Positions 5,895 through 21,987 of a stretch of 64,000 nucleotides of DNA are shown piece after piece. Source of the stretch: Rebecca billardiae RCC1528 (lineage: Eukaryota; Protista; Haptophyta); assembly GCA_965240325.2 (NCBI GenBank), contig OZ251224.1:1922001-1986000 (forward strand), in the 5' to 3' direction. Within the stretch, counting starts at the first letter, position 1. Each line of letters begins with the position of its first letter. The position numbers and the translations under genes are program-made. Under the pieces are notes generated by a model. It did no database searches and was not told the origin of the DNA. It saw only the letters and a program-made list of their open reading frames with translations.

Positions 5895-6076
5895 GTGTGT
5901 GGGGGTATACGGTGCCGCCACCCCACCCCGCCTCCCCAGCCCTCCTCCGAGCCTTCGTCATCCCCGATTCTCAGTCGACCCCCGCCGAGCCTTCGTCATC
6001 CCCGATTCTCAGTCGACCCCCGCCGAGCCTTCGGTGCCACCACCCCGCCGAGCCTTCGGTGCCACCACCCCGCCGC
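5895..6076 (+). repeat. PLV left terminal inverted repeat (182 bp)
   Basis: GTGTGTGGGGGTATACGGTGCCGCC... is the reverse complement of 21594-21775. Contains 2x38-bp and 2x25-bp internal direct repeats starting GAGCCTTCG. Confidence 0.95.
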
Positions 6077-6186
6077 CGCCGCCACGCCGCCGCCACCCCA
6101 ACCCCCTGCCACCGCCCGCCACGCCGCCACCGCGTTTATTTCGGTGCAATATAAAATCTTACGCACGTGTATAATACTGACCTATC

Positions 6187-6840
6187 ATGCCCTGGCGTGT
6201 GACTTGCGAAGCACGCACCGGAGCACCCGGCTTCGCCGACGACGAGGAATACGAGTCACGCTGGTTCGTGGACCTCACGGACGCACTCCGCCACTTGATC
6301 CACTTCCACCCTTCTGAGCGCTGGCACTGCGTCCGCCACGCCACGGTGCGCTTCGAGTACTCGGGCGGTCGGGCATGCAAATATAGTGACGGACTCATTT
6401 TCTACGGCAACAGCCTCAGGGACCTCGGCGTGAGCGAGCGCACCTTTGACGACGCGTTCGAGCAGGCGCTCGGCATCAAGCCGGTCACGCTGGAGCGGAA
6501 GAACAACGTGTTCGTACCAATCGACACGAACGCTTCCTCCGGCCGTCATCGCCTCACGCAAGAGACCATCAAGCAAAAGTCAAGGCGCTTGCTTCCTCCG
6601 GAGGAAGAATTGGAGGCGCACAGAGAGGAGAACATCGAGTGCTCCGAATGCAACCGCGAGGTGCCATTCGAGCTCTTCGCCTTCCGCCGCCGCCGAGGCG
6701 GCAGCGTGACGCGCACGATGAACTGTTACGAGTGCCACCTCGAGCAGGTGCGCATCCGCCGGGCGCGATTCGTGAGCAAGGGCGCATCCTCGGCGGAGCG
6801 CGACGCTCAAATAAAATCGGCGATTCGCGCCGCCGCCTAG
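6187..6840 (+). CDS. PLV hypothetical protein with C-terminal CxxC...CxxC zinc ribbon
   Basis: 217-aa ORF containing CSEC...CYEC and a basic RRRR stretch; AT-rich upstream spacer. Confidence 0.7.
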   Translation: MPWRVTCEARTGAPGFADDEEYESRWFVDLTDALRHLIHFHPSERWHCVRHATVRFEYSGGRACKYSDGLIFYGNSLRDLGVSERTFDDAFEQALGIKPVTLERKNNVFVPIDTNASSGRHRLTQETIKQKSRRLLPPEEELEAHREENIECSECNREVPFELFAFRRRRGGSVTRTMNCYECHLEQVRIRRARFVSKGASSAERDAQIKSAIRAAA

Positions 6841-6953
6841 GGGAAAAATCGGCGATCCGCGCCGAGTCGGCGTAGGGAGAAACGTACGCGCGTTATTCTG
6901 GCGCCAAATAAAAATGTCAACCACCATCATAACACAAAATCCTCGCTTGTAGT

Positions 6954-9900
6954 ATGATGAACGTTGATGAGCTCATCCGAAATGCCCGCGCGCGCCTCAA
7001 CGAGCGCACCCCTCGCATCGAAATTCCGATCACGAGCCGCCTAGGCGCTACCGCAGCAGCACGCACGAACTCCATCGCGAGAGCATTCCAGTCTCCGCCG
7101 GGCACCCCCAACTCGACGCCAGCCACCGGCCTCCGCTCCACCAGCCGCTCGCTCAGCCAATACACGCAGGAGCAGCTCACGCGCATCCGCCAGTTCCAAG
7201 ACGCATTCGAGGGCTTCGGCATGAGTGCCCCGCAAGTCCTCGCTGGCATGATTTATCAAGACCCGTGGAGCGGTAAGCGGCGCAAGATCCCCTCCAACGG
7301 CAGGCAGCTCGACGCCCTCGCCGAGCGCGTCGCCAGCAAGATCTCCGGTCCCGCGCCCCGCCGCACGCCCGCCCGCCGCGCGCCCGACCGCGACCGCGCC
7401 GCGAGCCTCCTCCAGCGCTTCACTCGCTCCCAGCTCGCAAACCGCCTGACGGACGCCCAGCGCACGCAGCTGGAAGTCGATCGGAACCTCGCCATGCTCT
7501 CCACGAGCATGCAGGATCGATACTTCGAATTTATCGACCGCAAGCGCTTTATTTTGCCGCTCAAGTGGATTCTGCACGAGAATCTTGGGCTGCTCCTGGA
7601 GCAGCAGCTGAACTACACGCCGAGCCAGCACCACCTCGGAGCGATTCTCCAGACGATTAATGCGACTATTGACGCTCGCCTGCAGGAGATACCGTACAGT
7701 CGCCTCTCGATGCACATTCGGCTCGAATCGATATTCGCGCACGCCAAGGTGACGATTAGCAAGACAAACAAGAACGGAAAGGCCGTCGAGACGTCCGAGT
7801 TCACCTGGGAGGCGGACCCCTTCGCGTTGACCATGCACGAGGTCGCTCAGCTCAAGACCCGCGAGGAGATTAGGCTCCACGCGCGCGCCTTCAAAAACCA
7901 GAACGACCAGTACAATCCGACCGCCTTGAACAAGGGCTTCTACGAGTTTGGCGTGGTCACCGCGGGCGCGAAGGAGCTCGACAACTCGACGGCGCGCCTG
8001 GTCATCGACAAGGGCAATCCCGAGGACGTGCAGCAGGTCAAGACCAAGGTCGCTGAGATACTCGCGCTCGTCACCTCCACGAACAACCCTCAGTACAGCG
8101 CGCGGCGATTTGTGGGCCTCCTCAGCTTTGACGTGGACACCTATCCGATCAATGCCGTCCGCCAGCAGGGCTCGTCTTACGTCAAGCTCCCGCAGAAGTT
8201 TGGCGGCGGAAGCAAGGGCCTAATCAATCCCGAGAACAAGACCGACAACAAATGCTTCCTGTGGGCGTCGCTCATGCACTTTGCGAACGCAGATGGCGCC
8301 AAGAAGCAGGAGCGCACCAGCACGCTCAAGCGCTACGAGTCGATGATCACCTGGCCGGAGGAGGTCAAGTTTCCGTTCGACTGCACCGACATCCCGCGCC
8401 TCGAGGAGGCCAACCCCACCCTCACCTGGAACGTCTTCTCGCTCGAGCAAGTCAAGCGCTCCTCGGAGGACCATCACGAGCACCCCGAGGACACGGACGA
8501 GTTCAAGTACCCCATCGTGCCGATTCACACGACCACGCCGGAGAAGTACCGCGAGCGCACGCTCATCAACATCCTCGCGTACGAGGACCACTACGTCTTC
8601 GTCAAGGACCTGGACAAGCTCCTCAGCGAGCGTGCGCACAACTGCGCGCACTGCCCCATCTGCACGCGGCGCTTCAGGACCAAGGCAATCCGCGACCAGC
8701 ACACCGCGCAGTGCAACGCCAATTGGCGCCACCTGTTTCAGCCGTGGACGCTCGACGAGATTAAGAGCCAGGCGAGGACGCCGCAGGAGCTCAAGCGCAC
8801 CGAGACGGACATCACCTACTCGCAGGACACCTCCGTCGTGTGGAAGCCGGTGGTGGCGGTGGCCGACTTTGAGGCGGTCAACACGCAAGTCAACGGGGAG
8901 ACGCATCAGAAGGCGCAGTCGGTGAGCCTCAAGTTTGACTTCCAGGACGGCATGGACGCCCCTGACATGGATTGCAGCTTCATGGGTCCGGATGCGGGTG
9001 TGCGATTTTTGCACGCGCTGCTCGACGCCACCCCCAAGATCCGCGACGCGTGCTCGCGCTACAAGGACGACTTTTCAAAGGTCACCGCGGCCGACCGCGA
9101 GCACTTTGAGGCGAGCGAGACGTGCCACTTTTGCGGCGAGGCTGCCTTCGCCTCGAGCGCGGAGATTGCTCGCGCCGAAGCGGAGTACGAGCTCAAGTCG
9201 AAACTCGCGCCGGAGGAAAAGGACGAGTTGAAGCGCGCGCTCGAGGAGGTCCGAGCCAAGCGCAAGGTGCTCGACCACTGCCACTGCACGGGCCTCTACC
9301 GCGGCGCGGCACACTCGCGGTGCAACCTCAAGCACGGCACGCCGAGTCTCATCAGCAGCATACCGGTCTACTTTCATAACATGTCCTACGACTCGCAGCT
9401 CATCATGCAGGCGCTCTCCGACGTGAGCGTTCAGGCGCGCATCAAGGAGCACAAGGTCCGTATGAATGCAATGGTGATCAACTCCGAGCGCTTCAAGACG
9501 CTCGAGATCGGGGCCTTCCGCATCCTCGACTCGATGACTTTTCTGGGTGGAAGCTTGGCGGAATCTCTGAAGAATCTGCCCTCAGAGGACAAGCACTCGC
9601 TGCGCCGGGCGGCCAACGAGCACGCCGAGCGCTTCGGCAAGGACCCGGATGCGGTCTTCGAGGCCTTCAAGCACAAGCAAGTCTTCCCGTACGAGTTCGA
9701 TTGGCACCAGCACCTCGACGAGCCCATCAGCGCAGATCCTCAGTTCTTCGGCTCCAAGCTGAGCGAAGGCTACGGCAAAACCGACGAGGAGCTGGAAGAG
9801 CGCCTGGAGGCCGAGCAAAAGGAGCTCGAGGAGAGCCTGCCCGAGCGCATGAGCCGCCTGCAGGAGGCAACCGGCATCGTCACGTGGCGCGATCTCCACG

Positions 9901-11534
9901 ATCTGTACCTCAGCATTGACGTCTGCGGGCTCCAAGATTGCATGCGTGCCTTCCGCAAGACCTCGATGAACACCTACGGCCTCGATCCTGCGTACTGCAT
10001 CTCCAACTCGCAATTCGCGTGGAAGGCCATGCTCAAGCTCACGGGCGTGAGCCTCGAGAGCATCCCGACGAGCGACCTGTACGAGCACGCCGAGTCCGGA
10101 CTCCGCGGAGGCATGTCGATGGCACGCAACCGCATCGCGCGCGCGAACCACCCGGATCTTCCCGAATATGATCCCGCCAAAGAATTCTCAGCGATCCACG
10201 ACTTTGATGCCAACGCACTTTATGCCTCGGTGATGTCGTGGAAGCTGCCGACGGGTGGGTATAAGGATGTCGATCCGGAGCGCTTCGATGCCAACGATCC
10301 GCGCTACGGCGGGCTCCCGACGCGACCGAATCAGCCGTGCGAGGAGTGGCAGGGCGATGTGGGGGCGCTCGTGACGGTGGACATCGACTACCCTGACCGC
10401 TTGCACGACCTGCACAGCGACTACCCGCTGCTCCCCGAGGTGATGGAGGTGCCCGACGAGATGCTCTCGCCTATGCAGCGGGGCAAGCGCGCCGTCAAGA
10501 CCACCAAGCTGATTGCGCACCTTGGCTCCCGCAAAAACTACACGCTCAACGTCACGATGCTCAAGTTTGCGCTGGCGCAGGGGCTCGAGCTCACCAAGGT
10601 GCATCGGGTCGTCGAGTTCGACCAAAGCCCGTGGCTGCGACCGTGGGTGGACCTCAACACGCGGCTGCGCAAGCAGGGCAAGAATCCTTTCGAGGAGGGG
10701 TATTTCAAGCTCATGGTGAACGCGTGCTTCGGCAAGACCATGGAGCGAATCTATCACCACACGCAAGCGCGATTCATTGATAACCGAGCGGCATTCACGC
10801 GGGCCATGACGAGCCACCGGGCTCTCACCTACAAGCCGATCGCACCCGAGTTTGCGCTCGTGACGATGAGCAAGCGCGAGTACGTGCGTGACAAGCCCAT
10901 CTTCGTGGGCGCCTCGATCCTTGACTTTTCGAAGCTGTGGATGTACACGTTTTTGTATAATGTGGTCTACCCCACCTTCGGACCGAAGAACGCCCGCCTG
11001 CTCGGGACTGACACCGACTCGCTCATCATGAATTTCCGGGCGCCCTCGCACGAGGCCTATTTGGAGAAAATGCTCAGCATCCGCGACGAATGGCTGGACA
11101 TGAGCAAGTTTCCGGAGGGGCACCCGCTCTTCACGGACGCAAACCGCAAGACACCGGGCTTCTTCAAGGATGAGCTCGGCGACAATTTGGCTATAGCAGT
11201 GGCCTTTGTGCGGGCGAAGACCTACTCGATCAAGACGCTCAAGAGCCTCGAGGACGAGCTTGAGGACGTCCACCGAGCCAAGGGTGCCCCCTCCCGCTGC
11301 GTGCAAAATAGCCTCACGCACGACGACTACGAGACGACGATTTTGGAGAGTTCGAGCGTCAGTGCGCAGTACCACGATCTGCAATACAAAAATCACAACA
11401 TTGTCTTCAGCCGACGCGTGAAGAAGGTGCTCGACTGGGTCGACGATAAGGGCTACCATCTCTCGGCCGAGCGCACGATTGCCCTCAATCACTGGCGCAT
11501 CAGGGCCGGCGCCCTCGCAGCGGCGATGGACTAG
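6954..11534 (+). CDS. polB: Protein-primed family B DNA polymerase with N-terminal terminal-protein-like region, OTU-like Cys/His module and inserted endonuclease VII-like domain
   Basis: GSSYVKLP...INPENKTDNKCFLW...HYVFVK; Exo I ADFEA, Exo II FHNMSYD, Exo III YLSID; EndoVII-like CHFC...DHCHCTGLYRGAAHSRCN; polymerase motifs DANALY, KLMVNACFGK, TDTDS. Confidence 0.95.
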   Translation: MMNVDELIRNARARLNERTPRIEIPITSRLGATAAARTNSIARAFQSPPGTPNSTPATGLRSTSRSLSQYTQEQLTRIRQFQDAFEGFGMSAPQVLAGMIYQDPWSGKRRKIPSNGRQLDALAERVASKISGPAPRRTPARRAPDRDRAASLLQRFTRSQLANRLTDAQRTQLEVDRNLAMLSTSMQDRYFEFIDRKRFILPLKWILHENLGLLLEQQLNYTPSQHHLGAILQTINATIDARLQEIPYSRLSMHIRLESIFAHAKVTISKTNKNGKAVETSEFTWEADPFALTMHEVAQLKTREEIRLHARAFKNQNDQYNPTALNKGFYEFGVVTAGAKELDNSTARLVIDKGNPEDVQQVKTKVAEILALVTSTNNPQYSARRFVGLLSFDVDTYPINAVRQQGSSYVKLPQKFGGGSKGLINPENKTDNKCFLWASLMHFANADGAKKQERTSTLKRYESMITWPEEVKFPFDCTDIPRLEEANPTLTWNVFSLEQVKRSSEDHHEHPEDTDEFKYPIVPIHTTTPEKYRERTLINILAYEDHYVFVKDLDKLLSERAHNCAHCPICTRRFRTKAIRDQHTAQCNANWRHLFQPWTLDEIKSQARTPQELKRTETDITYSQDTSVVWKPVVAVADFEAVNTQVNGETHQKAQSVSLKFDFQDGMDAPDMDCSFMGPDAGVRFLHALLDATPKIRDACSRYKDDFSKVTAADREHFEASETCHFCGEAAFASSAEIARAEAEYELKSKLAPEEKDELKRALEEVRAKRKVLDHCHCTGLYRGAAHSRCNLKHGTPSLISSIPVYFHNMSYDSQLIMQALSDVSVQARIKEHKVRMNAMVINSERFKTLEIGAFRILDSMTFLGGSLAESLKNLPSEDKHSLRRAANEHAERFGKDPDAVFEAFKHKQVFPYEFDWHQHLDEPISADPQFFGSKLSEGYGKTDEELEERLEAEQKELEESLPERMSRLQEATGIVTWRDLHDLYLSIDVCGLQDCMRAFRKTSMNTYGLDPAYCISNSQFAWKAMLKLTGVSLESIPTSDLYEHAESGLRGGMSMARNRIARANHPDLPEYDPAKEFSAIHDFDANALYASVMSWKLPTGGYKDVDPERFDANDPRYGGLPTRPNQPCEEWQGDVGALVTVDIDYPDRLHDLHSDYPLLPEVMEVPDEMLSPMQRGKRAVKTTKLIAHLGSRKNYTLNVTMLKFALAQGLELTKVHRVVEFDQSPWLRPWVDLNTRLRKQGKNPFEEGYFKLMVNACFGKTMERIYHHTQARFIDNRAAFTRAMTSHRALTYKPIAPEFALVTMSKREYVRDKPIFVGASILDFSKLWMYTFLYNVVYPTFGPKNARLLGTDTDSLIMNFRAPSHEAYLEKMLSIRDEWLDMSKFPEGHPLFTDANRKTPGFFKDELGDNLAIAVAFVRAKTYSIKTLKSLEDELEDVHRAKGAPSRCVQNSLTHDDYETTILESSSVSAQYHDLQYKNHNIVFSRRVKKVLDWVDDKGYHLSAERTIALNHWRIRAGALAAAMD

Positions 11535-11584
11535 TTAGCGCGTTTTTCTCAGCTCAAATAATTTTCTCACGCACTAGTATTAAA

Positions 11585-12100
11585 ATGGCCCCCTGCGATT
11601 TTGACGTTTCCGCTCGCCACGATTGTCGCTGCCGCGATTGCCGCGATTGCCGCGATTGCCGCGAGATGCGCACCGAGTTCGAGAGCCTCAAGGAGCGCGT
11701 GGTGGCTCTCGAGCGTGTCGTCGTCGCCAAGCCGCCCAAGCCGAGCGCGCGCCCCGGGTCGCTCACGGTGACATCAATAACCGCCATTGAGAGTCACTTT
11801 GGCGGCATCGAAGTGGTCGACGCCAAGTTCTTCAACGAGCACTGCATCGTGGGTAGACTCAGCGAGCCCTTCGTGGAGGGCCCCACTGCGGGCATGGCAC
11901 AATCGTTCAAAATTACCCGCAAAATTGTCGCTATCAGCGAGGCGTACGGCGAGCCGGGTCGGGCGCCGATCTCTCAATCGGCTACGCCCGCAAGCCTTCG
12001 GGACGTGTTGTGGCCGCGCTCGTGGTCACGTCAGCGAGGCGGAGCTTCGCCAAGCGCGCCAAGCGCGCCGATGTTTGCAGATTCTGATGGTGAGGACTGA
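11585..12100 (+). CDS. PLV hypothetical protein with (CRD)n repeat and short coiled coil
   Basis: 171-aa ORF in AAAATG context; 9-bp TGCCGCGAT tandem repeat encodes CRDCRDCRDCR. Confidence 0.6.
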   Translation: MAPCDFDVSARHDCRCRDCRDCRDCREMRTEFESLKERVVALERVVVAKPPKPSARPGSLTVTSITAIESHFGGIEVVDAKFFNEHCIVGRLSEPFVEGPTAGMAQSFKITRKIVAISEAYGEPGRAPISQSATPASLRDVLWPRSWSRQRGGASPSAPSAPMFADSDGED

Positions 12101-12206
12101 CTGGTCTGAGCACCACGCCATCACACAATTTGGAAGGATCAAAAACACTCGAAGGTGCTCGCTCGGAGCGCTTCCGAGGCTTTGGTGGCATGATACTATT
12201 TCGATA

Positions 12207-12857
12207 CTATTTTGAGGGGTTCTTTTTGCGAGCGGACGGCCGCGCGGACGGCCGCAGTAACCGGATACCCTCACTGCGGATACCGGTGATGGGGCCCGTG
12301 AATCGCGCGGTGATGACCTGCGCACGGCGATTGGCGTTCGAACGCGTGGTCACGTTCGCGCCGGCGGGGATGATGTTGTTTTGATCGACGTCCGGGTCGC
12401 GCCCGCCTTGGCGCACGACCTTCCCAGCCTTGTCAAACACGTACCATTTTCCGTCGACGGGCCGGCGCGCGCGCGCCAGTAGCCGGGCGACGTTCTCCTC
12501 GAGCATTGCCGGATTTGAAATTTGGCGCCACTCTTTATCGAGCGGCGGCTTGACGAATCCAAAGCCGGGGTTTGTGAGCGCGAGCAGACGCTTCTCTGCA
12601 GGAAAGACCAAATTCGGAGAGACGACCAAAAACCCGACTAACCTGAACGAATTCCCGGGCTTGGCGTAGGGCATCATATGGCGATAGCCTTTAAAGGTTC
12701 GACTCACGATATTAGCGGTGAGCCCCATTTTGAACAAACGACCGCTCGTATCCCACCCCGGGGCGATTACATATAGGCCCGCCGCCGGCTTTCCTCCCGG
12801 GGCGCGCTTGAGCAAATTGGCGTTTTTCATGGCCTTTTGGAACTGCGATGATTGCAT
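12207..12857 (-). CDS. GIY-YIG superfamily (T5orf172/MUG113-like) nuclease with basic tail
   Basis: GLYVI...FKMGLT...SR...GY...AEKRLL...KEW pattern. Confidence 0.6.
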   Translation of the reverse strand: MQSSQFQKAMKNANLLKRAPGGKPAAGLYVIAPGWDTSGRLFKMGLTANIVSRTFKGYRHMMPYAKPGNSFRLVGFLVVSPNLVFPAEKRLLALTNPGFGFVKPPLDKEWRQISNPAMLEENVARLLARARRPVDGKWYVFDKAGKVVRQGGRDPDVDQNNIIPAGANVTTRSNANRRAQVITARFTGPITGIRSEGIRLLRPSARPSARKKNPSK

Positions 12858-12872
12858 GACCCTTTAGCCTTT

Positions 12873-13148
12873 TTAGCTAATTGTTACTCCGATTTTACTC
12901 ACATTCGTAGCGAGTGACTTGGAGTCGCCCCACAGCAAGTGGCGGCTGTAATAGATGCCAGACTCGGGGTCGTCCCAGCCCTTATCGTGGCGATGGCGAG
13001 CGATCCACGCCGTTTTCTTCGCAGGGTCGCCATGATCGATGTACGTCGACCCGCCACGCGCGCCAAAGTGGAGCGTCCGACCACCCGGCGAAGTCAGCAT
13101 GAACCTCTTGTCTTTGCGCGTAGACCGTTTTAGGCGGCGGTGAATCAT
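12873..13148 (-). CDS. Tlr6F-like (DUF5754-type) small protein typical of PLVs and virophages
   Basis: RKDKRF...HFGARGGSTYIDHGDPAKKTAWIARH...W.DP.S..YYSRHLLWG. Confidence 0.8.
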   Translation of the reverse strand: MIHRRLKRSTRKDKRFMLTSPGGRTLHFGARGGSTYIDHGDPAKKTAWIARHRHDKGWDDPESGIYYSRHLLWGDSKSLATNVSKIGVTIS

Positions 13149-13181
13149 ATCTCATGCCCTTATTAAAGAGACTCTATATTA

Positions 13182-15332
13182 ATGTCGTCCATATTCGGTG
13201 ACTCATCGAGCACCTCCGCAGCCATCGACGGATCTGTCCAGACGGGCGCTGGCGCTGCGGCGTGGTCCGGCGTCGTGCGCACCACCATGACCGGTGAAGG
13301 CAGCTTGTCGGCGACCTTTGATCCGGCATTGCCTGACGGTGAATTGACGCTGCGCTTGGCGGGCGATCGCGATGCTTTCAAAGTGACCAGCGCAACCCTG
13401 ACGCCGACGACCCTGAGCGTCACGTGGACCCGTCAATATCACGATACAGTCAACCGCGGGTTCGATGACGAAACCCATCCGTACTTTGATGTACTCCTCG
13501 ACGGCCACGCAATCACGAGCTTTCCAATTAGCGGGCGGGGCGTGTACTCGCTCGACGGGGCCGTCGTCAATGGCGTCGTGACGCAAAGCTATTTTCAAGA
13601 ACCGCTCGTGAATTTCCCGCTAAATGCTGATTTGCTGGACACGGCCGACCGGGGGCTCTCCTTGGCTCTGGTCGGGACCACCGCGTTCGGTAATGAGGCC
13701 GTCGAGGCCGCCGCAGATGGGGTGACGCTCACCGTAGATCACCCGGGCCACCACGACGGGAATTTGACCGTGTGCTGCTACTTGAGGGGCCCACCGGCGC
13801 TGGGCACTTCCTACGTGCGCCAGGGTAGCGCGATCGCCTTCGCCGAGTGCCGCCTCGAAGCCCCGACCGCAAATACCATGTGCGAGACCTCGCTCGAATT
13901 TACGTCGGCGTCCAACCAGCTCGACGAGGACAACCGTGACCAGTGGAAGTACGTGGCGCTCGTACAAGATGAGGCAAATGCCCAAATATTCGTCGATCAT
14001 ACATTGGTGCACACCCGCAGCTTGGTAGGCGAGAAGCGGCTCTCTCTGTTTTACCCCACTAAAATTGGCCTCGCCCAATACGGTGCCGCTGCACACCTCG
14101 GAGTCTGGCCGCGCGCGCTGGACGCGTCGGAGCGGCTGACCCACGCCGAGTCGTGGCGGGGTGTGGTGGTTCGACGCACGTGGCTGCTCGATGGGGATTT
14201 GCTCGAGGTCGACGGGGCCGCCGCCGCGCTGCAGCCCACGGCCGGCGATTATTTGATGACGAGCGGGTATCTCGAAATGCAAAGTACTAGCACGCTGCAC
14301 CTGGGCCTCAACGAGATGCCCGACATGCTCGGCGGCGACCGGTTCTCGCTGGCGGCATGGGTGTACCGCCCGAACGATCAAGATAGCGTGCGCATGTGGC
14401 TCCTCGAGGATGGCGTCACCGATTTCACGTTCGAAATCATCGCTGGCCAGCTGCGCTCGGAGCTCGGCGCGACAGCGTTCCAGGACTTGGCAGGGCCGGC
14501 ACACGGCGGATGGCACCACGTTGCGCAAACGGTGGATGGCACAGTCTCCAAAATATATATCGATGGCGTGCTCGTGAGTACTGCTGCGCTGCCGGCCACT
14601 TTTACCCCGCTGCTCAGCATCATTGGGCACCGCTTTGCCACCATGCCCGCAGGTGTGCGCCTCTACGCGATGTCGATCGCGCGCGGTATCATCCACGTGC
14701 CGACGGTGATGAATTCGTACACGCCTGAGCAAGCTCTAGCTCCATTTGCCAGCTGGCCGATGACGGCGAATTTGACCGACGATGTGGGTAGCTATGCCTT
14801 TACGGTGTCGACTGGGACCGCAACGCACACCAATGGCTATGCAGATCTCAGTAGCGGTCTGGTGATGACTGCACCGGTGCCGACGCAGACGATGACGACC
14901 TTTGGCTTCTCAGCGTGGGTCTTCGTGGATGATGTGTCGGGCAGCTTCAAGCTCGAATGGCGTAATGCAGGCTCGAAGGTCGTGCATTTCTACTTGTACA
15001 GAAATGGTGTGGGCAACACCGCGTTTGGATTCGATATTACAGGGCAGTCAGGCAACTTGTATGATCGCGTGGATGTGCTGCCGCTGAACACCTGGTACCA
15101 TATTGCCTGGTCGTACACAGTCGGAGGGAACATGGAGGCCTGGCTGAATAAGGTGTCGCTCGGCGCGGAGGCCATGAGCGCCACCGCCGTGGGCGACGTC
15201 AACGAAATTTACGTGAGCACGCCCCCAAGTGGCGGGCCGTTCAAGTGCGCGGCCGTGCGCTTCTATACTGACGGTGCGCTCACCCAGACCGACGTAGATA
15301 GCGACTATGACCTCTTCACGCCGCCGCCATAG
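13182..15332 (+). CDS. PLV protein with three LamG/concanavalin-A-like lectin domains; putative fibre or receptor-binding protein
   Basis: Repeated motifs QWKYVALV...IFVD, GWHHVAQTVDG...IYIDG and TWYHIAWSY...AWLN; FSLAAWV and FGFSAWV precede the second and third. Confidence 0.75.
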   Translation: MSSIFGDSSSTSAAIDGSVQTGAGAAAWSGVVRTTMTGEGSLSATFDPALPDGELTLRLAGDRDAFKVTSATLTPTTLSVTWTRQYHDTVNRGFDDETHPYFDVLLDGHAITSFPISGRGVYSLDGAVVNGVVTQSYFQEPLVNFPLNADLLDTADRGLSLALVGTTAFGNEAVEAAADGVTLTVDHPGHHDGNLTVCCYLRGPPALGTSYVRQGSAIAFAECRLEAPTANTMCETSLEFTSASNQLDEDNRDQWKYVALVQDEANAQIFVDHTLVHTRSLVGEKRLSLFYPTKIGLAQYGAAAHLGVWPRALDASERLTHAESWRGVVVRRTWLLDGDLLEVDGAAAALQPTAGDYLMTSGYLEMQSTSTLHLGLNEMPDMLGGDRFSLAAWVYRPNDQDSVRMWLLEDGVTDFTFEIIAGQLRSELGATAFQDLAGPAHGGWHHVAQTVDGTVSKIYIDGVLVSTAALPATFTPLLSIIGHRFATMPAGVRLYAMSIARGIIHVPTVMNSYTPEQALAPFASWPMTANLTDDVGSYAFTVSTGTATHTNGYADLSSGLVMTAPVPTQTMTTFGFSAWVFVDDVSGSFKLEWRNAGSKVVHFYLYRNGVGNTAFGFDITGQSGNLYDRVDVLPLNTWYHIAWSYTVGGNMEAWLNKVSLGAEAMSATAVGDVNEIYVSTPPSGGPFKCAAVRFYTDGALTQTDVDSDYDLFTPPP

Positions 15333-15373
15333 ACAGTCCCATAGAGCCAAAAATCCGTAGTACCGGTACCATA

Positions 15374-16018
15374 ATGATGCGAGCCGTACCCACTGTATCA
15401 ACCGCCGAAGGCGAAGCGCGCGTCGCGAAAGCGGCCTGGGACGCCGGCGCTACGCTCGCCCGAGATCGCAAGTTCCTCATCGAGGCAAGCTATATGAGCA
15501 AGGCGGCAGCCCGACCGCACCTAGCCAAGCGCGGGTACCGACTTGATGAGCGCCTGTCGGATGAAGCGGACAAAGTAGCCGTGCACATCGCGAGCGGTCG
15601 GCCCGTCGTACTTTTCCGAGGCTCGGCGTCATTCGCCGACTGGGCCGTGTCGGACGTCCTGATCGCGCTGGGATTGAGCGCCAAGGACCCACGCCACGCG
15701 CGCGCGCGCAAGCTGGTGGAGATCGTCAAGCGCAAATACGGCCAGCCCGCCGCTGCGGTGGGGCACTCTCTGGGTGGGCACCTCGCGGAAGAAAGCGGCG
15801 CCTCGCAGATTCACACGTCACAAAAAGCGGCCGGTCTAAAAGATATCGGAAAGGCTTTGCCGAAAAGCCAATTCGATACCCGCTCGCCGGGTGATATAGT
15901 GAGTGCGCTGTCGGTTACGCAGCGTGGTGGGCGCCGGCAGACCCTCGGGCGTGCCAGCTTTGTGGACGCTCTACATAGTCCAGCGTTGTTCGCTTTGAAT
16001 CAGCACCGCGCTCGATAA
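15374..16018 (+). CDS. Class-3 lipase / alpha-beta hydrolase (PLV-type)
   Basis: VLFRGS...DW..D; nucleophile elbow GHSLGG; GDIVS; C-terminal NQH. Confidence 0.85.
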   Translation: MMRAVPTVSTAEGEARVAKAAWDAGATLARDRKFLIEASYMSKAAARPHLAKRGYRLDERLSDEADKVAVHIASGRPVVLFRGSASFADWAVSDVLIALGLSAKDPRHARARKLVEIVKRKYGQPAAAVGHSLGGHLAEESGASQIHTSQKAAGLKDIGKALPKSQFDTRSPGDIVSALSVTQRGGRRQTLGRASFVDALHSPALFALNQHRAR

Positions 16019-16021
16019 TCC

Positions 16022-16134
16022 GCGCTCGGTAATTCTGAGCGCTCGGTAATTCTGAGCGCTCGGTAATTCTGAGCGCTCGGTAATTCTGAGCGCTCGGTAA
16101 TTCGCGCTGAGTAATTCTGAGCGCTCGGTAATTC
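16022..16134. repeat. 17-bp tandem array (GCGCTCGGTAATTCTGA)n between convergent PLV genes
   Basis: Four perfect and about three degenerate units; most unit junctions form the palindrome GAGCGCTC. Confidence 0.9.
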
Positions 16135-16428
16135 TTAGCGCAAGTAACGATCCGCCCGGCTGGCGGCCGCGTCCGCGCGTCCGGCGATCTGGCGCCCGCG
16201 ATTCACCGCTCGCCGCGCGGCTCCAGTGTAGGGGCTGGCGACGTCGCCGAGGCCATCCGTGCGGTCTATTTCATTCAAAAATTGGTTTACGTCGCCGCCG
16301 ATTTTGTCGACGCACGGCTTCAGGTGGTGAGCCGCCGAGCTGATGGGGCGGCCGAGTCGACGCGCTGTGTTTGCCAGCCCGCCGAGCCGACCGCGAATGC
16401 CTCGCGTGAGCCTGCCAAGAAATGACAT
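16135..16428 (-). CDS. Small basic amphipathic protein downstream of MCP; candidate membrane-active or core protein
   Basis: 97 aa, starts MSFLGRLTRGIRGRLGGLANTARRLG; co-oriented 32 bp after the MCP stop. Confidence 0.65.
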   Translation of the reverse strand: MSFLGRLTRGIRGRLGGLANTARRLGRPISSAAHHLKPCVDKIGGDVNQFLNEIDRTDGLGDVASPYTGAARRAVNRGRQIAGRADAAASRADRYLR

Positions 16429-16460
16429 ATCGGTGTATAATTATCATATTTTTTTATTTT

Positions 16461-17774
16461 TTACACGGCGAACTGGAGCTGGTTCTGCGCGACCTCCATC
16501 ATGACGTCGTGCAGCGCCCAGGCATGCCACGTGAACGGCGCACCGTGGTTGCTATCGGCCTCGAAAATGGCGTGCTCCGTGTCCAGACGGCGACCGTCGA
16601 AGAGAATGTCGGACTGCGAGAATGCCGACGTGTTGAATGCGATGGCAAAAGCTGAGTTCGCGAAGCGCGCGCCATTCACCTTGGAAGCGTAGTCGGCGAC
16701 GCCAAGTGCGTTGAACGCCCGCACGAGCTCCGCGCGCGTCTCGGCAGCGCCATTCGTCGCGCTGACCGGCTGGTCTGGCACGAGCATCGAGCCAATGCGC
16801 AGCTGCCACTTGGAGATGGCCGCGCGAGTGCGCAGCGTGACATCGCCCGCGTAAGCATTGCTGTTCGCATCCGGATAGGCGGCGATGATAATCGTGTTGA
16901 CGCTCGCGAGGCGGAAGGGCAGCTGCCAGCTCGTCGCGGTGTTGGGCGATACTGAGTGCTGCGCGTGGAGGTAGCTCATCGACGGAACGTAGAGGTGGTC
17001 GAGGCTGCGCGCAATCTTGGTGTAGGCCGAATCCGAGAGCAGCACCGTGCCCAGCTGCATCTTGACGTCCTGGATCGATGGCATAGCCCCGGGATCAATC
17101 GTGTAGACACCCCAGTCCTTCGTCTGCGCGAGGTGAATGTCCACGCGGAGGCCTTGGTGCAGCTCGGAGATGGGGATGGCCTTGCCGCAGAGCGCACCGA
17201 ACACGTACACAAGCGGGAGGCACACAGTGAGCAAAGCGCCATTCGCGATGACCGCACCCTTAGGCACGTTGAGAGCATTGTTGATCGTCGCCTGCGACAG
17301 AGTCGCGGCGGTTACATCATAATCGGCGCTGCCGAGCATCGAGGCAGTGGAGAAGCACGACGAAGGCCCCGACTGGAAATCCAGCAGGAGATTGTGCAGC
17401 AGGCCCGCCTTGCCCGCCGAGGCGATCATCTGAGAGCCGTGATAGGCGTCGATGCGCTCGATGAGGCTGTAAGCGCTCTGCGAGAGAGTCAGAGAGGTGC
17501 CAGAGGTGTTGTTAATCGTGAATTGAACGACGCTCTGACTTGGATCCATCATAGCGCCTGGTGTGCCCGTAGGCAGATCGAACTGCACCACCTGCCCCGG
17601 AGAGAATGTCGACGCCGGTCCGGCATAGACGGTCGTGCGCTTGTACGTAGCACCGACGGCCACGGGCTTGGGGTTGGCAAAGTCATAATACATCGGTGCT
17701 GTCTCCTCCTGCTCAAGCACCATCGCCTCGTCCGCGCGAATGTCGTTCTTCATGTAACGCCCGGCGTACGCCAT
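16461..17774 (-). CDS. Major capsid protein (double jelly-roll, PLV-type)
   Basis: 437 aa, beta-rich; FSPGQVVQFDLP...DPSQSVVQF, SLIERI, LRVDIHLA, WQLRIGS..VPDQP, FAIAFN pattern; adjacent to the penton gene and near the ATPase. Confidence 0.85.
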   Translation of the reverse strand: MAYAGRYMKNDIRADEAMVLEQEETAPMYYDFANPKPVAVGATYKRTTVYAGPASTFSPGQVVQFDLPTGTPGAMMDPSQSVVQFTINNTSGTSLTLSQSAYSLIERIDAYHGSQMIASAGKAGLLHNLLLDFQSGPSSCFSTASMLGSADYDVTAATLSQATINNALNVPKGAVIANGALLTVCLPLVYVFGALCGKAIPISELHQGLRVDIHLAQTKDWGVYTIDPGAMPSIQDVKMQLGTVLLSDSAYTKIARSLDHLYVPSMSYLHAQHSVSPNTATSWQLPFRLASVNTIIIAAYPDANSNAYAGDVTLRTRAAISKWQLRIGSMLVPDQPVSATNGAAETRAELVRAFNALGVADYASKVNGARFANSAFAIAFNTSAFSQSDILFDGRRLDTEHAIFEADSNHGAPFTWHAWALHDVMMEVAQNQLQFAV

Positions 17775-17812
17775 TTATGTGTGTGTGTTTGGCTCCGACA
17801 TTTTTTTTTTTT

Positions 17813-18574
17813 TTACACAACGACAAATTTGAGCACGACCGAGATTTCGGCGCCGTTGAGATCCACTTCAGCCATCGTCTCAGAATCCAGGAGGCGCAGA
17901 TCAAGATTTTGCACTGAGCGGCGATTCGTCTCGAGGAGGTCGTCTGTTTGGCTCTGGTACGCGAGGACTTGGCCGAACGCGACCGTATTTTGGATGGTGA
18001 CGAGAATATTGCTCGTCGAGCCTGAGTTCAAGGTCGAGTCGCGCGACTTTACGTCGAGGCCTTCGCACACGAGGTGGTAGCCGCGCGGAATCAGATCGAC
18101 CACGGCAGGCGCCTCGATGCTCCCAGTCGCTGGCACGATGAGATCCGACTGCGCTAGGCCCAAGACGCGCGTCGCGGTGGACGAGCCCTTGACCGTGATT
18201 GGGTTGGCGCTCGAGTTGGCAAACGTGAATTTACCGCGCGATGCGTCGAAGGTCACCGTGAGCGTGGCGTTGACCGGCGAGCCCGTAAAGAGCGTGTCCA
18301 GCGCGGTGGCGAGCGAAGTGGCTGTGTAATTCTTGGGTGGGATCGTCATAGTGGTGTCGCCCCAATTCCCGGCGAGACCAATCGAGCCGTTGGAGCCGTC
18401 GACCGCATAACGGCACGACGGGAAGCTTACCGACTCGACGGCGACGAGAATGCTCTCATCGTGGGTGGCCATGATGGGATGGCTCAGCGTAAAGTCAGCG
18501 GCGCTCGTCATCGTGCGCCCCAGCGGGAAGCGGTCCGCCTGAGCCGTGTGCAGGTGAAGTCGGTGAGTCGTCAT
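17813..18574 (-). CDS. Minor capsid protein / penton (single jelly-roll)
   Basis: 253 aa from MTTHRLHL; VESVSFP, IPPKNYT, RVLGL, LDLRLLD...VDLNGAEISVVLKF motifs. Confidence 0.85.
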   Translation of the reverse strand: MTTHRLHLHTAQADRFPLGRTMTSAADFTLSHPIMATHDESILVAVESVSFPSCRYAVDGSNGSIGLAGNWGDTTMTIPPKNYTATSLATALDTLFTGSPVNATLTVTFDASRGKFTFANSSANPITVKGSSTATRVLGLAQSDLIVPATGSIEAPAVVDLIPRGYHLVCEGLDVKSRDSTLNSGSTSNILVTIQNTVAFGQVLAYQSQTDDLLETNRRSVQNLDLRLLDSETMAEVDLNGAEISVVLKFVVV

Positions 18575-18704
18575 TGACAGGGGTGGAGATATTTGGGGCG
18601 ATGATTGCGTCGATGATCTCATCGTCCAAGCCAGGACCCATCCGCTTGCGCGCGATGAATCTGGCGGCCGCCTCCCACGAAAAATCAAACATGGCGGGAT
18701 CCAT
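18495..18704 (-). CDS. Small PLV hypothetical protein overlapping the penton start
   Basis: AAAAATG start context; fills the gap between the penton and the divergent gene at 18751. Confidence 0.35.
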   Translation of the reverse strand: MDPAMFDFSWEAAARFIARKRMGPGLDDEIIDAIIAPNISTPVNDDSPTSPAHGSGGPLPAGAHDDERR

Positions 18705-18750
18705 TTTTCGATCAAAATGGAGTGTCTATTATCTCTAGAACAGATATAAA

Positions 18751-19197
18751 ATGGACGAGGCACCGCCGCCGCCGCCAGCGCTCGCCGTGCCGATCAAGCA
18801 GCCCAAAGCACGCACGGCAGCGCAGATCAAAACCACCGAGGTGATGCGCTTGGCCAAGCTGCGAAACACGTACACCGAGTACGCCCAGCGGTACGCCAAT
18901 CTCGCGGCCCAAGAGCAAGCCAAAATCGACGAGTTGAACGCTACTGTGCCAGTGCCAGAGCCCCCGCCAATCAAGCGCATGACCCCGCCGCCGCCGCCGA
19001 AGGAGCCCGACGAGGACACGCTGGTGCTCGAAGACGACCAGCCAATCGAGTCTACGCGAGCGCCACCACCACCGCGGGCGCCGTCGCGGCCGCCGTCGCG
19101 AGCGCCGCCGAGTGCGCCGCCGAGGGCACCACCGAGTGCGCCGCCGAGGGCACCGCCGAGTGCGGCACCCCCACAAAGAAAACTGAGGTACATCTAG
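18751..19197 (+). CDS. PLV Pro-rich / coiled-coil hypothetical protein
   Basis: 148 aa, ATAAAATG context, (RAPPSAPP)n repeats; directly upstream of the ATPase. Confidence 0.65.
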   Translation: MDEAPPPPPALAVPIKQPKARTAAQIKTTEVMRLAKLRNTYTEYAQRYANLAAQEQAKIDELNATVPVPEPPPIKRMTPPPPPKEPDEDTLVLEDDQPIESTRAPPPPRAPSRPPSRAPPSAPPRAPPSAPPRAPPSAAPPQRKLRYI

Positions 19198-19212
19198 AAA
19201 GCTCTATCTAAA

Positions 19213-19917
19213 ATGCAGATTGCCGAAGAGGCAAATCAAGTCGATCTGAGACTGCCGCGCATCACGGCGGACAAGCCGTTAAAGGTGGGCCTACCCGAGC
19301 CACTGCCCAACCTGACCTTCCACTGGGGCGTGTTTGGTCCGCCACGCAGTGGCAAGTCGAGCCAGGTGGCGGGCTTGATCACTGGCCCCTACCGAGGCGT
19401 TTTTGGAAATGTTATCTGGTGCGCACCGCAGACATCCATGGACTCGTTCGCCAAATCGCCGCTGCGCGACTTGGAATTTGTGTTTAACGAATTTCATGGC
19501 GCGGTCCTGGACGAAATCATCGACATCGCCGAGGAGAATGCCGCCGGCGGTCGTCCAACGCTGCTGGTGATTGACGATTTCGCGGCCAGCCTGCGCGACG
19601 CAAACCTGCAAAAGGCTTACGCCAAGATGGTGCAGAATCGACGGCATATCCGGCTTTCAATCATCGTGATCGCGCAAGGCTATATGAGCGTGCCGCTGAA
19701 TGTGCGCAAGCTTTTTTCAAATATTACCATGTTTCGTCCGAACAATTCCCGCGAGCTCACCGCGCTGCACTCCGAGCTTATCCCCATGTCAAAGGTGGAC
19801 TTTATGGGCGTCTATCACTACATATTCGGAAATGAGCGTCCGCACACGTTCATGTTCATGGACGTTGATGGTGGTATTTTGTACCGAGAGTGGAATCGAC
19901 TGCGCATTAAAAATTAA
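19213..19917 (+). CDS. A32-like (FtsK/HerA) genome-packaging ATPase
   Basis: Walker A GPPRSGKS, Walker B LLVIDD, arginine finger/sensor RRHIRLSIIVIAQ, PLNVR. Confidence 0.92.
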   Translation: MQIAEEANQVDLRLPRITADKPLKVGLPEPLPNLTFHWGVFGPPRSGKSSQVAGLITGPYRGVFGNVIWCAPQTSMDSFAKSPLRDLEFVFNEFHGAVLDEIIDIAEENAAGGRPTLLVIDDFAASLRDANLQKAYAKMVQNRRHIRLSIIVIAQGYMSVPLNVRKLFSNITMFRPNNSRELTALHSELIPMSKVDFMGVYHYIFGNERPHTFMFMDVDGGILYREWNRLRIKN

Positions 19918-19934
19918 TCCGCGGTAGCAATAAC

Positions 19935-20723
19935 ATGGCGACTGCAGTCCATCATCATACCTTCCGCGACACGGTGCCAGCGCGAGTGACTCACTTCACG
20001 CTGAACGGCACGCCGTATGCCGGTGCCATGCACCACCGTGGCAAGAAAGACGGCTGGTGGTCAGGCTTGCATCCAGGTCCAAGCTCGCGCAAGCTCGTGC
20101 ATCATAAGAAACCCATGATATTGCCTGCGCTGGTCACGATCGCCAGGCGAGGCCCGCCTACCAAGACCAAGATCAGCTTTGGGCGCGTCGCCCCCGGCGT
20201 GTACGACCTCGGCCAGTTCACGACGGATGAGGGCCACTACGATGCGAAGCACCTAAAATTCCCGCAACGCGATGCCAGCGGTCAGCCAATCTCGCGGCTG
20301 GTGGTGCGCTCTCAGCCGGCGCCTACTATGACGAGCTCTGACTCCGCCAATCGTCCTGCGGGGAGACCCGCGCCCGCAACGCCCGCGAAGATCCTCGTAC
20401 CCGCGACGCCTTCCCCCGCCGGACCAAGCCGCTCGAGTTCTGTCAGAGTCCCGCCAGTGCCGGACTCGTCTGGGGGTTCGTCCGTTGATAATGAACTACC
20501 TGTGGTCAGAAGCTCCACTCGAACTACTAACAAGAAGATTGCCGAAGGCAGAATCATATCATACCTCGATAACTTCTTAGCGAGATCTAATCAGCTGGGC
20601 TGGACTCCCGAAATTCTAGAGCAGACAATTGCGGCAAATCTAAAGATAAGAATAAATCTCGTTCGAGAAATCATGCGAGAGAGGGATGCTGCCGAGGCGC
20701 TGGCAGCACTTCGTGGGTCTTAA
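19935..20723 (+). CDS. PLV hypothetical protein
   Basis: 262-aa ORF starting 17 bp after the ATPase stop; Ser/Pro linker and an AT-richer helical C-terminus. Confidence 0.65.
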   Translation: MATAVHHHTFRDTVPARVTHFTLNGTPYAGAMHHRGKKDGWWSGLHPGPSSRKLVHHKKPMILPALVTIARRGPPTKTKISFGRVAPGVYDLGQFTTDEGHYDAKHLKFPQRDASGQPISRLVVRSQPAPTMTSSDSANRPAGRPAPATPAKILVPATPSPAGPSRSSSVRVPPVPDSSGGSSVDNELPVVRSSTRTTNKKIAEGRIISYLDNFLARSNQLGWTPEILEQTIAANLKIRINLVREIMRERDAAEALAALRGS

Positions 20724-20743
20724 TTGAAATCTTAGCCGCTCCT

Positions 20744-20857
20744 ATGTGGTGTGCTCTGCTGTTTGCGCTTGTAGCCGGAACCAGCATTGGCCAGTTCATT
20801 TGGATTGCGTTCTTGATGCCTGCTCCTAAGGCGACACCGCTAAAGAAGCCTTCTTAG
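20744..20857 (+). CDS. 37-aa single-pass membrane micro-protein
   Basis: Hand translation MWCALLFALVAGTSIGQFIWIAFLMPAPKATPLKKPS*; its TAG overlaps the TAA of the convergent gene. Confidence 0.5.
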   Translation: MWCALLFALVAGTSIGQFIWIAFLMPAPKATPLKKPS

Positions 20858-21145
20858 CGGAAGTGGTACACGATTACCTTGCCCTTGATGGCCATGCCGC
20901 GCACTGCATCGGCTACCTCGAACACAGGCGTATCGTACAGTTTGATGTAGGCCTCAGCATCGAGCAGCTCGATGTCGATGAGATCAAAGGTGCGAGTGCG
21001 CTGGAGGCGCTTGCTCAGGTAGCCGTCGCGAAGCGTGATGGTCGCTCAGGTACTTACCCGATGGCTTGCGCACCTCCGTGCGCCGGCCCTCGTCGAGCCA
21101 CGTCGAGTCACGGTCGAGCGGGAGCGAGACCGTTGGGGTAACCAT
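20854..21145 (-). pseudogene. ASCH/PUA-like small protein gene with a one-base frame break near 21045-21057
   Basis: First frame MVTPTVSLPLDRDSTWLDEGRRTEVRKPSGKYLS continues in the +1 frame as TITLRDGYLSKRLQRTRTFDLIDIELL...KVIVYHFR*. Confidence 0.45.
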
Positions 21146-21157
21146 CGCGCGGTGCGT

Positions 21158-21550
21158 GGCTTCGTGGGGCTCCGTGAGCGCGCTTTTCACCTAAGCCGCT
21201 TGTCTTTAACTACGAACCGCCACGGGCTTCGTGGGGCTTCGTGGGGCTCTGTGAGGGCGCTTTTTCACCTAGACCGCTTGTCTTTAACTACGAACCGCCA
21301 CGGGCTTCGTGGGGGCTTCGTGGGGCTCTGTGAGGGCGCTTTTTCACCTAGACCGCTTGTCTTTAACTACGAACCGCCTTCGTGGGGGCTTCGTGGGGCT
21401 TCGTGGGGCTCTGTGAGGGCGTCCGACGAAACCTTAGTGACGCGGCCAGGGCGCAGGTGTTTCGTCGTCAGCCACGAGGGGCCGAGGGAATGCTCAAAAA
21501 TGAGTTCAGTACGGTGGGGCTTCGTGGGGCTTCGTGGGGCTTCGTGGGGC
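21158..21550. repeat. PLV right subterminal repeats: three ~78-bp units plus 10-bp GGGCTTCGTG runs
   Basis: Repeated CGCTTTT(T)CACCTA..CCGCTTGTCTTTAACTACGAACCGCC blocks; absent from the left end. Confidence 0.85.
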
Positions 21551-21593
21551 GGCTCGGGGCTCGTGGTGGGATGGTGGCTCGTGGGTCGTGGAT

Positions 21594-21775
21594 GCGGCGG
21601 GGTGGTGGCACCGAAGGCTCGGCGGGGTGGTGGCACCGAAGGCTCGGCGGGGGTCGACTGAGAATCGGGGATGACGAAGGCTCGGCGGGGGTCGACTGAG
21701 AATCGGGGATGACGAAGGCTCGGAGGAGGGCTGGGGAGGCGGGGTGGGGTGGCGGCACCGTATACCCCCACACAC
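21594..21775 (-). repeat. PLV right terminal inverted repeat (182 bp)
   Basis: Reverse complement of 5895-6076; ends ...GTATACCCCCACACAC. Confidence 0.95.
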
Positions 21776-21987
21776 TGCTCGCGCGCGGCTGCCATCCGGG
21801 GCGTGCGGTGCGCGCGCCGGATGCCGCAGCGCAGCCCGACGACAGCGCGCGCAGCCTGAGCAGCCGCCTCTGGGAGGCGCGCGTGGGCGTTGGAACCGTA
21901 GGGGCTCTTCTGGGCGTGGTCGGTGTTGCACTGCTCCATCGCCGCCGATTGTCGCCGGAGCAGCCGGGGGGCGTGCGCATGGTCTGA
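21776..21987 (+). pseudogene. Host Pro-rich type-I membrane protein, 3' portion (TM helix and short tail)
   Basis: LLARGCHPG...VGVGTVGALLGVVGVALL-HRRR...V*; joins in frame to 4784-5894 when the PLV is removed. Confidence 0.7.

What the first reader, a model, noticed from the sequence alone, without database searches (positions are those of the whole stretch)
5895..21775. Complete, TIR-bounded Polinton-like virus integrated in the chromosome without any recognisable integrase
Seen: 182-bp TIRs that match by eye, and intact pPolB, MCP, penton, A32 ATPase, lipase and Tlr6F-like ORFs packed end to end, leaving no room for another large gene. Known: integrated Polintons carry an rve integrase, and many endogenous PLVs carry a tyrosine recombinase. 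No ORF here shows a DDE or R-H-R-Y motif, and no adenain maturation protease is visible. Inference: this is a young linear protein-primed virus that integrates through a trans-acting enzyme, through its own nucleases (GIY-YIG-like ORF or the EndoVII domain in PolB) plus host end-joining, or through an unrecognised integrase fold. It may be reactivatable.
Basis: partly seen in the sequence, partly recalled or inferred. Interest (0 to 1): 0.9.

Follow-up and report, generated by a model that had tools for sequence, protein, structure and literature searches.

The report
Integrase-less algal virus, blunt insertion
A nearly intact 15.9-kb DNA virus with no detectable integration enzyme sits inside a gene of what is probably a haptophyte alga, without duplicating the target, so host DNA repair likely sealed it into a chromosome break; such integrase-less viruses are already reported from green algae, and this is a clean new case.

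Summary
The element is real. Identical 182-bp inverted repeats (5895-6076, 21594-21775) bound a pPolB, a double jelly-roll capsid (fold confirmed), penton, A32 ATPase, lipase, LamG fibre and a GIY-YIG-type gene. No rve or tyrosine recombinase was found in any frame, although the same PHROGs scan found recombinases in two distant relatives. That negative is good but not final: three orphan ORFs remain unassigned.

New here: there is no target-site duplication, and joining the flanks restores a 440-codon host membrane-protein frame. This supports a true, blunt insertion and argues against an rve integrase.

The capsid groups with endogenous copies in Diacronema and Pavlovales CCMP2436, probably Gezel/PgVV-type. 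The surprise is smaller than claimed. Integrase-less endogenous PLVs, some with pPolB, are published for Tetraselmis, where pPolB-bearing Tsv-S3b (no recombinase listed) is packaged on giant-virus infection. A missing protease and an HNH domain in pPolB are also known.

Best mechanism (0.45): host end-joining captured the linear genome at a double-strand break. Rivals: a sibling's recombinase in trans (0.27), a hidden integrase (0.15), loss after insertion (0.10). Sister copies and reads could not be obtained. Verdict: new member of a known kind, and a useful test case for an open question.

The parts
5895..6076 (+). Left TIR, 182 bp; begins with a GT dinucleotide run and holds 38-bp and 25-bp internal repeats
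6187..6840 (+). Orphan ORF, 217 aa. C-terminal CxxC..CxxC zinc finger like those of phage EndoVII/HNH proteins; N-terminal domain unassigned. Best remaining hidden-integrase candidate
   Evidence: PHROGs E 5.8e-5 on residues 129-194 only; no homologue; model pLDDT 47; no fold match
6954..11534 (+). Protein-primed DNA polymerase B, 1526 aa, pPolB2-like, with EndoVII/HNH insert. Exo and Pol motifs present. N-terminal region presumed terminal protein plus vOTU (Cys434/His546, my assignment)
   Evidence: domain scheme from PMC11161782 passages
11585..12100 (+). Unassigned ORF, 171 aa, with a 9-bp repeat near its start
   Evidence: no useful hit; coding-like codon use
12207..12857 (-). GIY-YIG superfamily (T5orf172/MUG113-like) protein, 216 aa
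   Evidence: Atlas score 0.92; clusters carry PF10544 at 15% and 62%
12873..13148 (-). DUF5754 protein (Tlr6F-like; label recalled), 91 aa
   Evidence: homologues in L015 and L020
13182..15332 (+). LamG/ConA-repeat protein, 716 aa, likely attachment fibre
15374..16018 (+). Alpha/beta-hydrolase (lipase-like), 214 aa
16022..16141 (.). 17-bp tandem repeat, 7.2 copies, between convergent genes
16135..16428 (-). Small basic ORF, 97 aa, unassigned
16461..17774 (-). [quoted passage not shown]
17813..18622 (-). Minor capsid protein (penton), 269 aa
18495..18704 (-). Small ORF, 69 aa, unassigned, overlapping the penton start
18751..19197 (+). Pro-rich ORF, 148 aa, directly upstream of the ATPase; possibly PGVV05-like by position and by eye only
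   Evidence: position as in L013/L020; a profile from those loci did not detect it
19213..19917 (+). A32-like packaging ATPase, 234 aa
19935..20723 (+). Unassigned ORF, 262 aa, with a Pro/Ser-rich middle
   Evidence: no useful hit
20854..21145 (-). Small gene of about 95 codons split over two reading frames (pseudogene or assembly indel); no significant likeness to recombinases
   Evidence: codon scores 0.41 and 0.26; shuffle p 0.63 and 0.12 against two PLV recombinases
21158..21421 (.). Subterminal 79-bp tandem repeat, 3.3 copies, right end only
21594..21775 (-). Right TIR, 182 bp, identical to the left
4784..5894 (+). 5' part of the interrupted host gene (Pro-rich linkers, Cys-rich domains)
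   Evidence: in-frame GC3 0.88 and codon score 0.19 against -0.40 and -0.42 in the other + frames
21776..21987 (+). 3' part of the interrupted host gene (hydrophobic helix, then basic residues and a short tail)
   Evidence: continues the 5' frame with no base added or removed; best + frame by codon score, though only -0.07

Best explanation
This is a Polinton-like virus with identical 182-bp ends, a protein-primed polymerase, capsid genes and no detectable integrase, inserted into an algal host gene with no target duplication; it likely replicates as linear, terminal-protein-capped DNA and was likely captured whole at a chromosomal double-strand break by host end-joining. Shown: the ends, the gene set, the missing TSD, the in-frame host join. 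Inferred: nuclear entry of the linear genome, removal of the terminal protein, blunt ligation, and exit by pPolB copying from the TIRs rather than by recombinase excision, perhaps on giant-virus infection as for Tsv-S3b. The break was probably not virus-made; a cut by the element's own GIY-YIG or HNH domain is a minority branch (about 0.12 of the 0.45).
For: No duplicated word abuts both ends; the best is a 5-mer offset by 5 and 2 bases. The exact join gives a 440-aa frame with a C-terminal hydrophobic helix; the other two frames give 397 and 453 aa with other tails. rve integrases leave about 6-bp TSDs (PMC12220804 section 10), so rve action, cis or trans, is disfavoured. pPolB correlates with DDE enzymes, while tyrosine recombinases go with PolA/AEP replicases and typically make circular products (bioRxiv 2026.10.13.758929 passage). 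No integrase by Pfam, PHROGs or NCBIfam, by a profile of two PLV recombinases over all 305 frames of 30 aa or more (best E 3), or by a two-sequence rve profile (best E 0.41); PHROGs did find both control recombinases (E 2.4e-4 and 2.9e-4). Precedents.
Against: One junction pair only. A missing TSD is equally the published signature of tyrosine-recombinase integration, and that enzyme is the most widespread DNA-processing gene in PgVV-like PLVs; 2 of the 14 distant relatives fetched carry one. Both ends are intact to the same base, cleaner than repair junctions often are (recalled). Near-identical related capsid genes at several Diacronema loci suggest a repeated, possibly enzyme-driven process. 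The in-frame test cannot see a gain or loss of 3 or 6 bases, so a short recombinase coupling sequence is not excluded. The controls sit near the detection limit: Pfam missed both and NCBIfam gave one at E 0.096. ORFs 6187, 11585, 19935 and the pPolB N-terminus remain unassigned.
Confidence: 0.45

Rival explanations
1. The element is non-autonomous for integration: a sibling Gezel-type PLV in the same host supplied a tyrosine recombinase in trans, acting on a circularised TIR-TIR junction.
For: No TSD and base-exact ends fit recombinase action. Recombinases are widespread in PgVV-like PLVs and present in L013 and L020. In Tetraselmis, recombinase-bearing S2x and pPolB-bearing S3b occur in the same host.
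Against: No helper was seen (no genome held; no hit in the 64-kb window). pPolB genomes are linear and pair with DDE enzymes in surveys. S3b's ends differ from those of S2x.
Confidence: 0.27
2. An unrecognised or very divergent integrase is encoded by ORF 6187, 11585, 19935 or the pPolB N-terminus.
For: ORF 6187 lies next to the TIR and pPolB, has a zinc finger, and has no homologue among 422 candidates. PLV recombinases already sit at the limit of profile searches.
Against: The control recombinases are 299 and 326 aa; the orphans are 171-262 aa with zinc-finger or low-complexity parts. A by-eye rve likeness in ORF 6187 scored 11.5, below the top ten of 40 shuffles (13.9-16.4). Recombinase versus pPolB profile probability 0.9%.
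Confidence: 0.15
3. The element integrated with its own recombinase, which was later deleted.
For: A frame-broken small gene and a one-sided 79-bp repeat array at the right end could mark a rearrangement. By subtraction, many TIR-bounded cryptophyte PLVs lack both enzymes, e.g. 45 of 305 in cluster C3.
Against: TIRs are 100% identical and the core genes are open, so little time has passed; no remnant was detected.
Confidence: 0.1
4. Misassembly: a free linear virus contig was stitched into host sequence.
For: No reads could be checked.
Against: The two flanks are halves of one host reading frame, and the junctions share no repeat with host DNA.
Confidence: 0.03

Closest known systems
Tsv-S3b and pDNAP-bearing Chlorodendraceae PLV elements (bioRxiv 2025.10.09.676808; bioRxiv 2022.05.02.489867)
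   Same: Endogenous, TIR-bounded PLV of similar size (18-19 kb) with pPolB, MCP, mCP, ATPase and fibre, and no integrase reported; integration mechanism stated to be unknown.
   Different: Green-algal TsV capsid group and 583-bp TIRs there; here a probable haptophyte host, a Pavlovales-associated capsid clade and 182-bp TIRs. S3b reactivation is shown; here untested. The text I read gives no junction analysis.
Gezel-14T / PgVV-like PLVs (Aquintoviricetes; bioRxiv 2022.07.28.501842)
   Same: MCP, mCP, A32, Tlr6F-like gene, lipase, fibre, GIY-YIG, TIRs, no protease among the core genes, haptophyte association.
   Different: A tyrosine recombinase is widespread in that group and undetected here. 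PGVV05 was not confirmed. GC is about 60% against 36% for PgVV.
Polintons/Mavericks with pPolB2 (Jeong et al., bioRxiv 2023.08.22.554363)
   Same: pPolB with an internal HNH/EndoVII domain; about 30% identity to many polymerases on long ENA/NCBI contigs, the named ones from animals; TIRs.
   Different: No rve integrase, no TSD, no adenain protease, and a different capsid group.
Endogenous PLV capsids of Diacronema lutheri and Pavlovales sp. CCMP2436
   Same: Same supported capsid clade; CCMP2436 also holds a 44%-identical pPolB.
   Different: Only about 29% capsid identity. Their gene content and junctions could not be read with these tools.

Membership tests
Polinton-like viruses (broad) | Double jelly-roll MCP | tested here: met
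Polinton-like viruses (broad) | Minor capsid protein and A32-like ATPase | tested here: met
   (penton by sequence profile, fold not modelled)
Polinton-like viruses (broad) | 14-40 kb genome with TIRs | tested here: met
   15,881 bp, 182-bp TIRs
Polinton-like viruses (broad) | Forms virions | not testable with these tools
   no experiment or reads
PgVV/Gezel-type PLVs | MCP falls in the PgVV group | tested here: inconclusive
   Groups with D. lutheri MCPs. Bellas 2023 Table S4 lists 3 D. lutheri MCPs in a column I count as PgVV; that these are the same proteins is assumed. No reference PgVV MCP was in my trees.
PgVV/Gezel-type PLVs | Core genes Tlr6F and PGVV05 | tested here: inconclusive
   DUF5754 present (equivalence to Tlr6F recalled); ORF 18751 fits by position but was not detected by profile
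Polintons (Polintoviricetes) | pPolB | tested here: met
Polintons (Polintoviricetes) | rve integrase | tested here: not met
   no confident fold test of the orphans
Polintons (Polintoviricetes) | 5-6 bp target-site duplication | tested here: not met
Polintons (Polintoviricetes) | Adenain/Ulp1-type maturation protease | tested here: not met
   no hit
Tyrosine-recombinase PLVs | Tyrosine recombinase gene | tested here: not met
   positive controls found by PHROGs but missed by Pfam
pPolB2 clade | HNH insert and phylogenetic placement | tested here: inconclusive
   insert present; no tree with reference pPolB1/pPolB2 was built

The most novel reading that the evidence does not exclude
A Pavlovales lineage of PLVs integrates by an undescribed route: its own nuclease (GIY-YIG, the pPolB HNH domain, or orphan ORF 6187 as a new integrase fold) cuts short palindromic host sites, and the linear genome is joined in blunt. 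The insertion point sits beside the centre of a 9-bp palindrome with 4-bp arms, a pattern found at 2.9% of host positions.
Probability: 0.15. Interest if true: 0.8.

Novelty: new member of a known kind. Interest (0 to 1): 0.38.

Why it matters
How integrase-less PLVs enter genomes is called unknown in print, and one such virus can be packaged during giant-virus infection. This locus offers a young copy, exact ends and a predictable empty site inside a coding gene, so sister-copy junctions could separate host repair, a borrowed recombinase and a viral nuclease. If repair capture is right, many endogenous PLVs could be passive captures that still work as virus reservoirs. It also extends the type to a further capsid clade and probably to Pavlovales algae.

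Tried and rejected
No whole genome is held, so copy number and helpers are untested. No sequencing run was listed for 16000-25900; this is no evidence either way, and no reads were laid.

Sister genomes: 8 scans of viral contigs gave no capsid relative. They gave one distant pPolB virus (L001), two HNH-only hits, and 9 pattern loci with no MCP-profile hit. Two scans of prokaryote genome contigs gave none, nor did phage records (81). The first metagenome scan gave none; the second gave 14 loci (96). The 13 of these placed in the tree all fall outside the 18-row clade (101; L015 left out because its MCP is split). Of their 136 ORFs, 111 went to Pfam and 38 to PHROGs. The loci are partial, so missing integrases there show nothing. 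The L001 record has no rve hit (127).

ORF 6187: no homologues, Atlas best 0.86, low-confidence model, best Z 3.9, no Foldseek hit at E 0.001, no PDB sequence hit: inconclusive. pPolB residues 60-400 gave no Atlas hit. By-eye rve likeness of ORF 6187 and recombinase likeness of frame 20857-21045 failed shuffle tests. The strict H-x-x-R motif scan is rejected as a test because it missed the controls. The offset 5-mer near both junctions is rejected as a TSD (13). The EndoVII domain as an integrase substitute is weak because integrase-bearing Polintons have it. The careful tree did not finish; one search is the quick tree.

Literature: seven searches listed no paper on this element or on junctions of integrase-less PLVs, and only one paper holds both Diacronema and polinton (52). 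bioRxiv supplements were closed, Bellas 2023 Table S5 is cut before the Diacronema rows, and the PMC12220804 supplements were listed but not read; any of these may hold gene maps of Pavlovales elements.
Full report
Observation. The element runs from 5895 to 21775 (15,881 bp). Its ends are identical for 182 bases, the terminal 18-mer occurs nowhere else in the window, and GC drops to about 0.60 from about 0.70 in the flanks. The flanking genes (DEAD-box helicase, Copia element) are eukaryotic and very GC-rich. A Pavlovales haptophyte is my inference from the named relatives of the capsid and polymerase and from composition.

Gene content. The 1526-aa ORF is a pPolB (PF03175) with exonuclease and polymerase motifs in place and an EndoVII/HNH insert. 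Of 133 relatives (120 listed), the best are 50%, 43% and 44% identical, the last from Pavlovales sp. CCMP2436; the rest are 28-36%. The 437-aa ORF had 1 relative by word search but 442 by profile search. Folded with a 106-row alignment it gave pLDDT 91 and matched PBCV-1 Vp54 at E 3.5e-19: a double jelly-roll capsid. Penton, A32 ATPase, lipase, DUF5754, LamG fibre and a T5orf172-type GIY-YIG gene are supported. ORFs 6187, 11585 and 19935 and three small ORFs stay unassigned. A small gene at 20854-21145 (-) is split over two frames. Gaps between ORFs are at most 130 bp.

Is an integrase missing? I scanned 150 of 159 six-frame segments of 55 aa or more with Pfam and PHROGs, and 14 main frames with NCBIfam: no rve, tyrosine recombinase or protease. 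For calibration, two recombinases from distant relatives (L013, L020) were found by PHROGs at E 2.4e-4 and 2.9e-4, missed by Pfam, and one reached E 0.096 in NCBIfam. A profile built from them found nothing in all 305 frames of 30 aa or more (best E 3), nor did a two-sequence rve profile (best E 0.41). The absence is therefore likely but rests on searches near their limit, and the single-sequence model of ORF 6187 was too poor to decide.

The junction. No duplicated word abuts both ends. Removing the element exactly joins a host frame starting at 4784 to 21776-21987, giving 440 codons that end in a hydrophobic helix, basic residues and a short tail; the other two frames give different tails. 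The 5' part is clearly coding (codon score 0.19 against about -0.4); the 3' part is the best + frame but weakly so (-0.07). This supports a true insertion with no duplication and a net host change of zero or a multiple of three bases. The site lies beside the centre of a 9-bp palindrome, as do 2.9% of host positions: suggestive, one case, noticed after the fact.

Relatives. In a quick IQ-TREE run (49 rows) and FastTree (118 rows) the capsid falls in a supported clade (22 rows at 97; 18 rows at 100). It includes three CCMP2436 proteins and a D. lutheri cluster with four accessions, at about 29% identity. Related viruses have thus entered Pavlovales genomes more than once. Bellas 2023 lists three D. 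lutheri capsids in a column I count as PgVV-group. No genome of this clade could be fetched. The 14 loci are more distant; two carry a recombinase beside a D5 primase-helicase.

Mechanism. rve integrases leave about 6-bp duplications, so an rve, own or borrowed, fits poorly. Two routes leave none: tyrosine recombination and end-joining at a break (general knowledge). Surveys pair pPolB with DDE enzymes and recombinases with PolA/AEP replicases and circular products. A linear, protein-capped genome with no recombinase therefore fits repair capture slightly better (0.45) than a borrowed recombinase (0.27); a hidden integrase (0.15), later loss (0.10) and misassembly (0.03) follow. Against my choice: the ends are very clean, recombinases are common in this virus group, and n is one. 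The terminal GT run would suit sliding-back initiation (recalled). Exit by pPolB copying from the TIRs is inferred from the Tsv-S3b precedent.

What is known. Chase et al. (bioRxiv 2022.05.02.489867, passages) found no integration protein in Chlorodendraceae PLV elements, some with pPolB, and called the mechanism unknown. Tsv-S3b has pPolB, no recombinase listed, and was found both in host DNA and encapsidated after giant-virus infection (bioRxiv 2025.10.09.676808, section 6 and passages). In cryptophytes, subtraction from the published counts leaves many TIR-bounded PLVs with neither enzyme, e.g. 45 of 305 in C3 and about 83 of 183 in C4 (PMC12220804, section 10 and passages). Gezel-type core genes include no protease (bioRxiv 2022.07.28.501842, sections 11-12 and passages). 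HNH in pPolB2 is described for integrase-bearing Polintons (bioRxiv 2023.08.22.554363, passages). Also seen: PMC10120064 (passages and supplement rows), bioRxiv 2026.06.19.733378 (parts 1-4 of 5), and passages of PMC12721341, bioRxiv 2026.07.28.741278, bioRxiv 2026.10.13.758929 and PMC11161782.

Verdict. It works like Tsv-S3b: an endogenous, probably still competent pPolB PLV that lacks its own integrase. It is a PLV, probably Gezel-type, and not a Polinton (no rve, TSD or protease). The kind is known; new are the capsid clade, the probable host group and a base-resolved blunt junction in a coding gene. Interest 0.38; the nuclease-directed reading (probability 0.15) would merit 0.8.

Noticed in passing
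window 963-2064: Gene-less foldback element with about 400-bp inverted arms, ends starting CAAGG, apparently a 7-bp target duplication; P-element-like by recall.
   Followed up: partly
window 2136-4681: 2.5-kb element with about 630-bp inverted arms and a 9-bp target duplication, lying about 100 bp upstream of the interrupted host gene, so this locus was hit by three elements in a row.
   Followed up: partly
window 33356 to about 40350: Copia-type LTR retrotransposon; the LTRs are identical over the 300 bases shown, and gag (34072-36693) and pol (36285-39965) are in different overlapping frames.
   Followed up: partly
window 55060-56808: Near-identical direct repeats spaced 1017 and 727 bp apart, a recent local duplication or small LTR element.
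   Followed up: no
window 6100-19935, upstream of element ORFs: AT-rich spacers before most element start codons, several with AAAAT or TATA-like words, unlike the GC-rich host; possible giant-virus-type promoters.
   Followed up: no
L001 342-10710: A viral contig with a pPolB2-like polymerase, a long capsid-like ORF and a protease-like ORF; no rve hit in the 15.9-kb record.
   Followed up: partly
L016-L018, L021, L022, L024: Freshwater-type PLV group with longer capsids, variously carrying VLTF3, a GH18 chitinase-like gene and (L017, L022) pPolB; no integrase found in the parts fetched.
   Followed up: partly
L013 1-19565: 19.6-kb contig whose two ends overlap in sequence (possibly circular) with D5 primase-helicase, tyrosine recombinase and GIY-YIG.
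   Followed up: no
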